Notes: a model not told the origin generated them from the sequence alone. Positions 13,543-14,338 are shown, counted from the first letter of the stretch. The stretch: 15,799 nucleotides of DNA from a virus (IMGVR_UViG_2681813154_000010), one strand, 5' to 3'. Numbers and translations are program-made.

Positions 13543-13791
13543 CTCACTGAGATTAAAGCAAAGCGCAAAATTGCGCTGGCTACATCCCTCACATCTGAGG
13601 ACTGTTAACCAGCAGGCCGGAATATATTCAGAAACTACGAAATTTTCGCAGTTTAATTACTCGTCAGCTTAATCGCTAACCCGCTCTGATATTTTCGGAA
13701 ACCTCAATTTGAGGAAGTCGGCGAGGTAACTGTTTGATATTCCCGATAGCGCAAAGATGCGCGGTCGGGCAGAATGACCACCACCTCAATC

Positions 13792-13845
13792 GTGACGGAG
13801 AGTGACAACCAGTGACACACCGTGACAAAAAGACGGTTTAACCGT
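13792..13845 (+). repeat. Four GTGAC(A) repeats at exact 10-bp phasing followed by the palindrome ACGGTTTAACCGT; candidate integrase arm-type or regulator binding sites
   Basis: GTGAC at 13792, 13802, 13812 and 13822; palindrome at 13833..13845. Confidence 0.4.
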
Positions 13846-13879
13846 TCATTAAAAATCGACGTGATTTTGTGCTTTCCGG

Positions 13880-13903
13880 ATGACGTGGCCAACGTCATTT
13901 TTT
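13880..13903 (+). terminator. Candidate rho-independent terminator (7-bp stem ATGACGT / ACGTCAT, loop GGCCA, T6)
   Basis: Read directly; short AT-containing stem, so weak. Confidence 0.35.
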
Positions 13904-14205
13904 AGCGAAAAATTCTGATTAAGGTCACTGGCTGAACGGTCATAATGACCACGCAGACCATCGAGGCAACCATAGCGATCATCGTTACGGTTGGAGCTTT
14001 TCCGCCATTGGTGGAAAAGGTGCACATCTGGATCATCATTACGGTGATCAAGGGTATGTAAAACCCACCAGCCTGATTAAAGGTTAACCGGAAAAAAAAT
14101 CCGGTAGCCCCGTTATGGGGATCCCCATATCGACATTAACGCCCCTCATGAATTGGTGCGCTTCCCCCTGGAAAGATTACCCGCCTGTATATTTCTTGTG
14201 TCTAT

Positions 14206-14262
14206 TTGTTCCACGTTGTTTCATACAGTGCACCGAACGGTGTAGTTAATGGTGTAGTCAAT
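14206..14262 (+). promoter_or_regulatory. Junction-proximal repeat cluster: TTGTTCcacgTTGTT (15-mer identical to 6629..6643), inverted repeat CACCGaaCGGTG, and tandem 12-mer GGTGTAGTTAAT / GGTGTAGTCAAT
   Basis: Read directly: 14206..14220, 14231..14242, 14239..14262; within about 130 bp of the phoQ stop codon. Confidence 0.35.
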
Positions 14263-14338
14263 TTGCGATTTTTGGCACTTTTTCAATGAAAATTGTTTGA
14301 TCGAATCAATGACTTGATGTAGTGGTAAAAGGACATAT

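What the first reader, a model, noticed from the sequence alone, without database searches (positions are those of the whole stretch)
13543..14338. About 800 bp non-coding right arm with phased GTGAC repeats, palindromes and tandem 12-mers, directly abutting the phoQ 3' end
After the last element gene the sequence has no convincing ORF but is dense in structure: GCGCAA-AATTGCGC dyad (13562..13577); four GTGAC repeats at exact 10-bp spacing (13792..13826); palindrome ACGGTTTAACCGT (13833..13845); a hairpin plus T-run (13880..13903); GGGGATCCCC and CCGGAAAAAAAATCCGG hairpins (about 14090..14140); inverted repeat CACCGaaCGGTG and tandem GGTGTAGT(T/C)AAT (14231..14262). These likely include the integrase arm sites, the att core and the phoQ terminator. 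As I recall, in E. coli K-12 phoQ is followed closely by roxA (ycfD); here roxA is absent, so the element is inserted just downstream of phoQ and may affect 3' processing of the phoPQ transcript.
Basis: partly seen in the sequence, partly recalled or inferred. Interest (0 to 1): 0.45.

Follow-up and report, generated by a model that had tools for sequence, protein, structure and literature searches.

The report
Non-coding right arm of a phage satellite
The 800 bp after the last gene are the non-coding right end of a known kind of phage satellite (an EcCICFT073-type island, here a decayed capsid-forming copy) inserted between phoQ and roxA: the last ~150 bp are the integrase's recombination arm, and the rest is a patchwork of satellite-specific repeats whose function has not been shown.

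Summary
Observation confirmed. All six motifs sit at the stated coordinates. The arm holds 14 short dyads against 4.9±1.9 in shuffles, and the four GTGAC repeats at 10-bp phase are far beyond chance.

Interpretation partly right. The element is inserted in the 75-bp phoQ–roxA spacer of K-12. The core GGACATATTT (14331-14340) overlaps the phoQ stop codon, and PhoQ is intact. The tandem GGTGTAGTYAAT pair is the integrase arm site: it recurs upstream of int and is found only with that integrase clade. No phoQ terminator was found.

The other ~650 bp are not att-specific. They are a mosaic of modules found in 1,145 of 5,426 complete E. coli genomes, always in phage satellites and never in phages. 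These include EcCICFT073, O157 island OI-51 and satellites embedded in lambdoid portal genes.

The modules are:
- repeated units of a perfect IHF consensus plus a variable hairpin;
- an optional GTGAC×4 array with convergent terminators;
- hairpins with compensatory changes;
- a nearly invariant 15-mer containing a Chi site.

The arm is not the packaging site (cos maps to ~11201), not a conserved small ORF and not a known RNA family. Functions of the distal modules are inferred only. The element itself is defective: capsid nonsense codon, disrupted terS.

The parts
13537..13600 (+). First repeat unit. It overlaps the orf93 stop (CGGCGGTAAC) and has a degenerate IHF-like motif, the dyad AGCGCAAAATTGCGCT (13562-13577) and the hairpin CCTCACATCTGAGG (13587-13600).
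   Evidence: same unit type in many arms
13686..13714 (+). Repeat unit: CTAACCCGCTCTGATATTTTCGGAAAC plus hairpin CCTCAATTTGAGG (13702-13714). The IHF-like motif carries one extra base here.
13724..13762 (+). Repeat unit: GGTAACTGTTTGATATTCCCGATA, with a perfect IHF consensus TAACTGTTTGATA at 13727-13739, plus hairpin GCGCAAAGATGCGC (13749-13762).
13792..13826 (+). Four GTGAC direct repeats at 10-bp phase. This is an optional module. The repeats and their phase are conserved while the spacers vary in other satellites, which suggests a binding array for an unidentified protein.
13828..13845 (-). Terminator-like site for the minus strand: ACGGTTAAACCGT followed by CTTTTTG.
13880..13905 (+). Intrinsic-terminator-like hairpin ATGACGTGGCCAACGTCAT plus T6. 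Probable end of the satellite's late (packaging) operon. It faces the minus-strand site, so the two are convergent.
   Evidence: the homologous site is scored as a terminator in L022
13938..14019 (.). Hairpins GGTCATAATGACC (13938-13950), P2 (13967-13993) and P3 (13997-14019). Stems are kept while loops vary, and the inner stem of P3 is replaced by other complementary sequences in other arms.
14057..14147 (.). Module E2, the most widespread block. It contains the invariant CCCACCAGCCTGATT (14064-14078), which holds Chi (GCTGGTGG) on the minus strand at 14065-14072, then the A8-loop hairpin (14087-14105) and the palindrome TATGGGGATCCCCATA (14114-14129). A weak minus-strand promoter-like site overlaps it (-35 at 14062-14057, -10 at 14040-14035).
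14195..14275 (+). Integrase arm region: TTGTTCCA/TTGTTTCA, CACCGAACGGTG, and the tandem arm-type sites GGTGTAGTTAAT (14239-14250) and GGTGTAGTCAAT (14251-14262). A ~75-bp homologous copy lies upstream of int in attL.
14304..14316 (-). IHF consensus (CAAGTCATTGATT) lying between the arm-type sites and the core.
14331..14340 (.). att core GGACATATTT, which overlaps two bases of the phoQ stop codon (14339-14341). This is the right boundary of the element.
13261..13542 (+). orf93 (phrog_1561), the last gene of the element. It precedes this kind of arm in nearly all satellites examined. Function unknown; predicted three-helix protein.

Best explanation
The region is the non-coding right arm of a phage satellite of the EcCICFT073 family. 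In this window the satellite is a capsid-forming variant that has decayed. It is integrated by a P4-like tyrosine integrase into the phoQ-roxA spacer.

Shown:
- The insertion site and the core GGACATATTT.
- The doubled 12-mer GGTGTAGTYAAT lies on both sides of the core and follows the integrase clade.
- The remaining ~650 bp are a mosaic of modules shared only among satellites.

Inferred:
1. 14195-14340 is the P-arm of attP/attR. Int binds the doubled 12-mer through its arm-binding domain, and IHF bends the DNA at 14304-14316 to bring arm and core together.
2. The hairpin plus T6 at 13880-13905 ends the late operon. The facing minus-strand site at 13845-13828 stops transcription entering from the phoQ side.
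3. The units made of an IHF consensus plus a variable hairpin, sitting at the 3' end of the operon, act like RIP/BIME-type extragenic repeats. That is, they offer architectural IHF binding, hairpins at mRNA 3' ends, and short homologies that drive module shuffling.
4. The nearly invariant Chi-containing block is the first Chi that RecBCD would meet when moving rightwards from the cos end at ~11201. It would therefore protect or recombine linear satellite DNA.
For: Identity of the element:
- Int, D5 primase, capsid, protease, portal, HNH, TerS and TerL are all present.
- Int has the Arm-DNA-bind_3 domain.
- The same insertion with roxA beyond int is seen in L001 and in CFT073, that is EcCICFT073 itself. 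K-12 has the empty site.

att arm:
- Core alignment.
- A ~75-bp homologous arm segment with the 12-mer pair lies 20-45 bp upstream of int.
- In 76 loci, the 12-mer pair is found in 48. All 15 loci where an integrase at least 78% identical lies in the same contig and enough sequence follows E2 have it. None of the loci with a 24-46% identical integrase has it.
- That other clade carries its own doubled motif, GTGTATTGCR x2. A doubled attP motif is reported for it in 10.1101/2022.07.18.500453.
- IHF consensus at 14304-14316.

Mosaic modules:
- Parts of the arm occur in 1,145 of 5,426 genomes. The only phage-record match is one weak 59-bp hit.
- Module maps.
- Units: 45 of 55 distinct units have a hairpin of at least 5 bp, against 6.3 +/- 2.4 in shuffles.
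- The IHF consensus occurs in 22 distinct contexts in one orientation and 1 in the other.
- There is a compensatory pair GCGC..GCGC versus GCTC..GAGC.
- Convergent terminators are scored in the homologous L022.
- Chi: invariant 15-mer; CCACCAGC 58 times against GCTGGTGG 10 times in 35.6 kb of arms, with 0.54 expected for each.
Against: - Nothing shows that Int, IHF, RecBCD or RNA polymerase act at these sites.
- Counted as independent sequence contexts, Chi orientation in the arms is about 3 to 3. Two arms have lost the octamer. The invariant block could therefore be conserved for another reason, for instance the overlapping -35-like TTTACA.
- The GTGAC array and terminator module is absent from many arms, including EcCICFT073. 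It cannot be essential.
- Hairpins in the units lack clear U-tracts on the + strand, and strand-specific G-U evidence is contradictory: P2 favours the minus strand and P3 the plus strand.
- The E2-to-core distance (~265 bp) is similar in two integrase clades. This leaves open that E2 belongs to the recombination architecture.
Confidence: 0.6

Rival explanations
1. The distal arm encodes one or more non-coding RNAs. One candidate is a ~200-nt minus-strand RNA starting from a promoter inside E2 (-35 TTTACA at 14062-14057, -10 AATGAT at 14040-14035) and ending at the minus-strand terminator at 13845-13828. Another is structured RNAs cut from the 3' UTR of the late operon. Such RNAs would regulate the satellite or its helper phage.
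For: - A promoter-like site is scored at the same place in the window and in EcCICFT073.
- Other variants keep TTTACC, a 17-nt spacer and NATTAT despite a different spacer sequence (read).
- Hairpins P2 and P3 keep their pairing while loops and inner stems change.
- The universal A.C mismatch in P2 on the + strand becomes a G.U pair on the minus strand.
- Alignment folding gives -28.5 (minus strand) against -12.0 (plus strand) kcal/mol.
Against: - No Rfam family matches, even at permissive E-values.
- The candidate RNA folds only 1.75 sd better than shuffles.
- One promoter-like hit is no more than chance gives, and the site is not scored in variants 2 and 3.
- P3 in the window has a G.U pair on the plus strand.
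- The sequence downstream of the promoter differs completely between arm types.
- No expression data were found.
Confidence: 0.2
2. The whole 800 bp is the attP arm: the GTGAC repeats, dyads and hairpins are all binding sites for Int, AlpA/Xis and host factors.
For: - Recombination directionality factors often bind phased direct repeats, as GTGAC x4 is (established knowledge of lambda Xis and P2 Cox).
- The arm is on the side away from int, as the lambda P arm is.
- The E2-to-core distance is similar in two integrase clades.
Against: - GTGAC x4 lies 500 bp from the core and is missing from EcCICFT073 and O157 arms that use the same integrase and site.
- The repeat units and E2 occur with integrases only 24-46% identical and with other att sites.
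- They also occur on both sides of an inserted Q gene, far from any att site.
Confidence: 0.08
3. The arm carries the satellite's packaging site (cos or pac).
For: - Classical E. coli PICIs carry cos sites near their 3' end (PMC6739421).
- One 25-nt resemblance exists between the EcCICFT073 cos1 cosB region and the E2 block.
Against: - No lambda-type cosN in the window.
- Local alignments of lambda cos, cos1 and cos2 with the arms score within the shuffle range.
- In EcCICFT073, cos1 and cos2 lie upstream of orf93.
- The genome ends of the related virion-derived record vB_KppS-Ant map between the HNH-adjacent ORF and terS, which is window position ~11201.
- The same arm modules serve satellites with three different packaging systems.
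Confidence: 0.03
4. The arm is functionless filler: decayed cargo genes and recombination scars, kept only to hold the genome at a packageable length.
For: - Extreme mosaicism and a variable number of units.
- The unit borders repeat the orf93 stop region CGGCGGTAAC.
- Cargo genes sit in the same position in other satellites.
- cos satellites are length-constrained (PMC10530653).
Against: - Dyad density is far above shuffles.
- Compensatory changes keep the pairing.
- Blocks are invariant across integrase clades.
- A perfect IHF consensus is kept in 22 contexts in one orientation.
Confidence: 0.09

Closest known systems
EcCICFT073 (prototype E. coli PICI) and capsid-forming PICIs
   Same: Same roxA|phoQ insertion site and same integrase clade. 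It also has an orf93 homologue followed by an arm containing IHF+hairpin units and modules E2, F, G and H at 90-97% identity. The gene set in the window matches the published cf-PICI description: own capsid, portal, protease, HNH, TerS and TerL (10.1101/2022.09.08.507074).
   Different: EcCICFT073 has lambda-like capsid and decoration genes, RppA and two lambda-type cos sites, and it lacks the GTGAC/terminator module. The copy in the window has a nonsense codon in the capsid gene and a disrupted terS. None of the papers read describes the arm.
Phage lambda attP P arm (Int arm-type sites, IHF, Xis, Fis sites)
   Same: It lies at the prophage end away from int. It has direct repeats bound by the N-terminal arm domain of Int and an IHF consensus between the arm sites and the core.
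   Different: The arm-site sequence differs: GGTGTAGTYAAT in exact tandem. Only ~150 bp can be assigned to recombination, and no Xis-like array lies close to the core.
Doubled attP motif of helper-embedded satellites (10.1101/2022.07.18.500453)
   Same: A tandem doubled ~12-bp motif lies ~160-175 bp right of the E2 block: GTGTATTGCAAT GTGTATTGCGAC in L086:3788-3811 against GGTGTAGTTAAT GGTGTAGTCAAT here. The two share a GTGTA core.
   Different: A different integrase clade (40% identity) with different targets, namely lambdoid late genes.
RIP/RIB (BIME-1) elements of E. coli: REP palindromes flanking an IHF site at 3' ends of operons (recalled from Boccard & Prentki 1993 and Oppenheim et al. 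1993; not re-read here)
   Same: Repeated extragenic units at the 3' end of a transcription unit, each combining an IHF consensus with a hairpin-forming palindrome, with a variable copy number.
   Different: No similarity to the REP consensus is visible by eye. The stems are short (5-8 bp) and fall into at least 8 unrelated sequences. The units are confined to satellites and absent from phage records.
Chi (GCTGGTGG) as protection of linear or rolling-circle DNA from RecBCD
   Same: An exact octamer sits in a nearly invariant non-coding block. Its orientation is the one read by RecBCD travelling from the terS-side cos end.
   Different: Activity is untested. The conserved block is 15 nt, longer than Chi. 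Independent contexts do not show a clear orientation bias.

Membership tests
attP/attR arm of an arm-binding tyrosine integrase | An integrase with an N-terminal arm-DNA-binding domain is encoded by the element. | tested here: met
   PF13356 Arm-DNA-bind_3 (E 5e-18) plus PF00589 in window 1-1230.
attP/attR arm of an arm-binding tyrosine integrase | A short identical core is present at both element ends and in the empty site. | tested here: met
   GGACATATTT in attL and attR of L001, CFT073 and the window; GGGCATATTT in K-12 attB.
attP/attR arm of an arm-binding tyrosine integrase | Repeated arm-type sites lie on both sides of the core and are distinct from the core. | tested here: met
   A GGTGTAGTYAAT pair at 14239-14262 and another 20-45 bp upstream of int in L001 and CFT073, within a ~75-bp homologous segment.
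attP/attR arm of an arm-binding tyrosine integrase | The arm-site sequence follows the integrase clade. | tested here: met
   Among the 76 E2-bearing loci, the pair is present wherever an integrase at least 78% identical was found with enough sequence after E2. It is absent with integrases 24-46% identical, and that clade has another doubled motif.
attP/attR arm of an arm-binding tyrosine integrase | Physical binding of Int and IHF, and a requirement for recombination. | not testable with these tools
   Needs EMSA or footprinting and site mutants.
Capsid-forming PICI (cf-PICI) | A satellite-sized element with int, alpA and a replication module, plus its own capsid, protease, portal, connectors, HNH, TerS and TerL, and no tail genes. 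| tested here: met
   Pfam hits; annotation of the near-identical element in L001.
Capsid-forming PICI (cf-PICI) | Intact morphogenesis and packaging genes, so that the element can be mobilised. | tested here: not met
   In-frame stop at 7684-7686 in the capsid gene. A 98-bp deletion removes the terS start, and a 56-nt insertion, partly masked, lies in terS.
Lambda-type cos site (cosQ-cosN-cosB), as in EcCICFT073 cos1 and cos2 | A cosN sequence GGGCGGCGACCT with its conserved flanks. | tested here: not met
   No match with up to 3 mismatches in the window. Local alignments to the arms score no better than shuffles.
Known RNA families (Rfam 15) | A covariance-model match. | tested here: not met
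   No hit at E <= 5 in 13200-14500, none at E <= 0.05 in the whole window, and only two chance-level hits outside the arms in six related loci.
Type I toxin-antitoxin or small membrane peptide | A conserved small hydrophobic reading frame. | tested here: not met
   The frames at 13945-14061 (+) and 13902-14051 (-) are broken by indels that are not multiples of 3 in homologous arms. No PHROG hit.
RIP/BIME-like extragenic repeats | An IHF consensus joined to palindromic units, repeated at the 3' end of an operon. | tested here: met
   22 distinct contexts of YAANNNNTTGATW in one orientation. 45 of 55 units carry a hairpin of at least 5 bp.
RIP/BIME-like extragenic repeats | REP (PU) consensus palindromes. 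| tested here: inconclusive
   No resemblance by eye; no REP model was available to score. I therefore claim an analogy, not membership.
Chi recombination hotspot | The octamer 5'-GCTGGTGG-3'. | tested here: met
   Minus strand at 14065-14072, inside the invariant CCCACCAGCCTGATT.
Chi recombination hotspot | RecBCD-dependent protection or recombination in the active orientation. | not testable with these tools
   The orientation relative to the inferred cos end (~11201) is consistent, but this is inference only.

The most novel reading that the evidence does not exclude
The units of an IHF consensus plus a variable hairpin, together with the hairpin-rich E1/E2 block, form an undescribed family of repetitive elements specific to phage satellites. 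The family is carried by at least four integrase clades of E. coli satellites, including helper-embedded ones. It would have a dedicated cis or RNA function, for example a structured regulatory RNA array, or an IHF-folded DNA scaffold that controls late-operon read-through, recombination or packaging length.
Probability: 0.25. Interest if true: 0.5.

Novelty: new member of a known kind. Interest (0 to 1): 0.3.

Why it matters
The result places this Shigella/E. coli island in the EcCICFT073 family. It fixes the island's right boundary and core, and it identifies the integrase arm sites. These are useful for annotating satellites and for engineering them as delivery vehicles.

It also shows that E. 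coli satellites with unrelated integrases and packaging systems share a conserved but unstudied non-coding backbone: IHF-site/hairpin units and a Chi-containing block. This backbone probably explains their rampant module exchange. It is a cheap target for deletion experiments on transfer, stability and expression.

For phoPQ biology, the insertion replaces the phoQ 3' flank and uncouples roxA from phoPQ. That is testable, but nothing here suggests it is dramatic.

Tried and rejected
- Small toxic peptide or type I TA: rejected, because the frames are not conserved.
- Known RNA family: none found.
- Lambda-type cos in the arm, and repeat units as cosN-like relics: not above chance. The cos site is mapped elsewhere.
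- GTGAC array as a packaging signal: the module is present or absent independently of TerL.
- E2 as an integrase-specific site: rejected, since it occurs with four integrase clades.
- E2 as an AlpA site: uninformative. AlpA co-diverges with Int (57% identity) and is undetected in one clade.
- orf93 as a clue: a narrow family of 37 clusters at 50% identity. The model is a three-helix bundle with pLDDT 70, and there is no PDB sequence or fold match.
- Strand assignment by G-U pairs: contradictory.
- Literature on sRNAs near phoQ, OI-51 or CP-933C, and on the arm in PICI papers: nothing found.
- The genome-contig scan with orf93 gave only one close locus (Shigella flexneri SFBU1023, arm 99.9% identical), so no breadth outside Escherichia/Shigella was obtained.

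Full report
OBSERVATION

- the dyad AGCGCAAAATTGCGCT (13562-13577);
- four GTGAC repeats at 13792, 13802, 13812 and 13822;
- ACGGTTTAACCGT (13833-13845);
- the hairpin ATGACGTggccaACGTCAT followed by T6 (13880-13905);
- ACCGGAAAAAAAATCCGGT (14087-14105) and TATGGGGATCCCCATA (14114-14129);
- CACCGAACGGTG (14231-14242);
- the tandem GGTGTAGTTAAT/GGTGTAGTCAAT (14239-14262).

These features exceed chance. The phased GTGAC pattern gives 3 overlapping hits against 0.04 expected. The arm holds 14 perfect dyads with stems of at least 5 bp, against 4.9 +/- 1.9 in 300 dinucleotide shuffles and 1-8 in equal windows of the coding part.

The region is non-coding. The two hydrophobic small frames around 13.9-14.06 kb are interrupted by 1-, 4- and 2-nt indels in homologous arms.

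WHAT THE ELEMENT IS

The window encodes the following:
- an integrase with an arm-binding domain;
- a D5-type primase;
- an HK97-type capsid, protease and portal;
- HNH, a P27-type TerS and TerL.

This is the gene set of a capsid-forming PICI as described in 10.1101/2022.09.08.507074. Of 5,426 complete E. coli genomes, 172 carry the TerL–orf93–arm–phoQ junction over at least 80% of window 13000-15000. In a full copy (L001), roxA lies 248 bp beyond int. K-12 has 75 bp between phoQ and roxA.

The prototype E. coli PICI, EcCICFT073, occupies exactly this site. It has the same integrase clade, an orf93 homologue and a 554-nt arm of the same family. O157 island OI-51 (z1835-z1857, next to phoQ) is another occupant.

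A Shigella flexneri genome holds an arm 99.9% identical to the window's.

THE ATT PART

Aligning attB, attL and attR gives the core GGACATATTT (window 14331-14340; GGGCATATTT in K-12). It overlaps two bases of the phoQ stop codon. PhoQ differs from K-12 at one residue only.

The doubled 12-mer behaves as an integrase arm site:
- It lies 69-92 bp left of the core.
- It recurs, within a ~75-bp homologous segment, 20-45 bp upstream of int on the other side of the core.
- In 76 loci fetched through the E2 block, the pair is found in 48. All 15 loci where an integrase at least 78% identical lies in the same contig with enough sequence after E2 have it. None of the loci whose integrase is 24-46% identical does.
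- That other clade consists of satellites embedded in the portal gene of lambdoid prophages. It has its own doubled motif, GTGTATTGCAAT GTGTATTGCGAC (L086:3788-3811), in line with the 'doubled motif' reported in 10.1101/2022.07.18.500453.

An IHF consensus lies between the arm sites and the core (14304-14316). I therefore assign 14195-14340 to site-specific recombination. Binding itself is inferred.

THE REST OF THE ARM

Positions 13543-14190 are not specific to this integrase or site.
- Parts of this stretch occur in 1,145 of 5,426 genomes at 80-97% identity, nearly always unannotated.
- In phage records only one weak 59-bp match was found.
- Module maps show free reassortment.

(a) Repeat units. 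Directly after orf93 come repeated units: Y-TAAC-N3-4-TTGAT-W-TTYYCG followed by a short hairpin.
- The conserved part is a perfect IHF consensus, YAANNNNTTGATW. It occurs in 22 distinct contexts in one orientation and 1 in the other.
- 45 of 55 distinct units carry a perfect hairpin of at least 5 bp, against 6.3 +/- 2.4 in shuffles.
- Stems fall into about eight unrelated sequences, and one compensatory pair is seen (GCGC/GCGC against GCTC/GAGC).
- The window has three or four units. Only one has a perfect IHF consensus (13727-13739). Other arms have up to eight.

(b) An optional module. It combines GTGAC x4 with two convergent terminator-like sites. The repeats and their phase are conserved, while the spacers vary. 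The terminator-like sites are a minus-strand one at 13845-13828 and a plus-strand one at 13880-13905.

(c) Hairpins P2 and P3. They keep their pairing while loops vary, and the inner stem of P3 is replaced by other complementary sequences.

(d) Module E2, the most widespread block.
- Its invariant 15-mer CCCACCAGCCTGATT contains Chi on the minus strand.
- It follows orf93 or cargo genes in four integrase clades.
- It also occurs downstream of an inserted Q antiterminator gene.

WHAT IT IS NOT

- It is not cos. No lambda-type cosN is present, and cos alignments do not exceed shuffles. EcCICFT073 cos1 and cos2 lie upstream of orf93. The ends of the virion-derived relative vB_KppS-Ant map to window position ~11201, between the HNH-adjacent ORF and terS.
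- It is not a known RNA family.
- orf93 gives no lead. It is a narrow family with a predicted three-helix fold and no PDB match.

MECHANISM

Shown: the site, the core, the link between the arm repeat and the integrase clade, and the satellite-specific mosaic.

Inferred:
- Int and IHF assemble on 14195-14340.
- The hairpin plus T6 ends the late operon, and the facing site blocks transcription entering from the phoQ side.
- The IHF/hairpin units act like RIP/BIME repeats at an operon's 3' end and supply the short homologies behind the mosaic.
- The Chi-containing block is the first Chi met by RecBCD moving rightwards from the terS-side cos end.

Caveats:
- Chi orientation is not biased when independent contexts are counted (about 3 to 3), and two arms lack the octamer.
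- A weak minus-strand promoter overlaps the block. Alignment folding favours the minus strand, so a non-coding RNA remains a live rival. However, the candidate RNA folds only 1.75 sd better than shuffles, and G-U evidence on strand is contradictory.

COMPARISON AND NOVELTY

The element, its site and its general organisation are known. None of the papers I could read describes the arm.

The att-proximal part is an ordinary member of the lambda/P4-type arm architecture. The distal repeats resemble RIP/BIME elements in design, but I could not show membership.

Overall this is a well-observed but largely ordinary feature. It has a modest open question about the conserved satellite-specific repeats.

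Noticed in passing
window 7684-7686: In-frame stop codon (W to stop) in the major capsid gene, relative to the 385-aa protein of the near-identical element in L001. The satellite's capsid gene is a pseudogene here.
   Followed up: yes
window 11201-11306: Relative to L001, a 98-bp deletion between short CCCGAC/CCCGCC repeats removes the DNA just right of the inferred cos end, together with the terS start codon. 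A 56-nt insertion (a 14-nt duplication plus 42 masked N) also sits in terS. Packaging is probably dead.
   Followed up: yes
window ~11176-11201: The sequence GGGGTGGGGGGCGTTTTCAGGAC aligns with the right physical end of the virion-derived record vB_KppS-Ant (LR881103). This places the cf-PICI cos cleavage site between the small ORF after HNH and terS.
   Followed up: partly
window 10112-10192, 10411-10466, 11265-11306: Three runs of N (179 bases in all) lie inside the head-tail connector/HNH/terS region. These are masked or unassembled stretches.
   Followed up: no
window 885-14072: 13 Chi octamers lie within 14.3 kb of element DNA, 9 on the gene strand and 4 on the other. About 0.24 per strand is expected at random. 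Four of them share the extended context CAGGCTGGTGGG (2046, 6161, 12875 and 14065 as reverse complement).
   Followed up: partly
L131, L148, L152, L142, L103, L110, L086, L077 (for example L131:632-4700): The same terS-orf93-arm-E2 ending is found in satellites inserted inside, and co-oriented with, the portal gene of lambdoid prophages. About 260 nt after E2, a 257-aa portal remainder follows, then gpC, gpD and gpE homologues. These are the 'helper-embedded satellites' of 10.1101/2022.07.18.500453.
   Followed up: partly
L006:3200-4230 and L108:7227-7900: In another satellite, a Q-family antiterminator gene sits between the IHF/hairpin units and the E1/E2 block. This shows that the arm is a cargo insertion point.
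   Followed up: partly
L057:3282-3459: A very short arm in which a repeat unit (CTAACCCGTTGATTCTTTC) is fused directly to the att core GGACATATTT at phoQ. It lacks E2 and the 12-mer arm sites, so it is probably a deletion derivative that can no longer excise.
   Followed up: no
L093:12125-12344 (CFT073): EcCICFT073 cos2 lies in inverted orientation between rppA and the orf93 homologue. In L090, only cosQ plus half of cosN remains, abutting the terS stop.
   Followed up: partly
window 14341 leftwards; L002:5242-5316: The insertion replaces the entire native 3' flank of phoQ and moves roxA about 14 kb away, onto the far side of the island. If roxA depends on read-through from phoPQ, it is uncoupled in island-bearing strains.
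   Followed up: no
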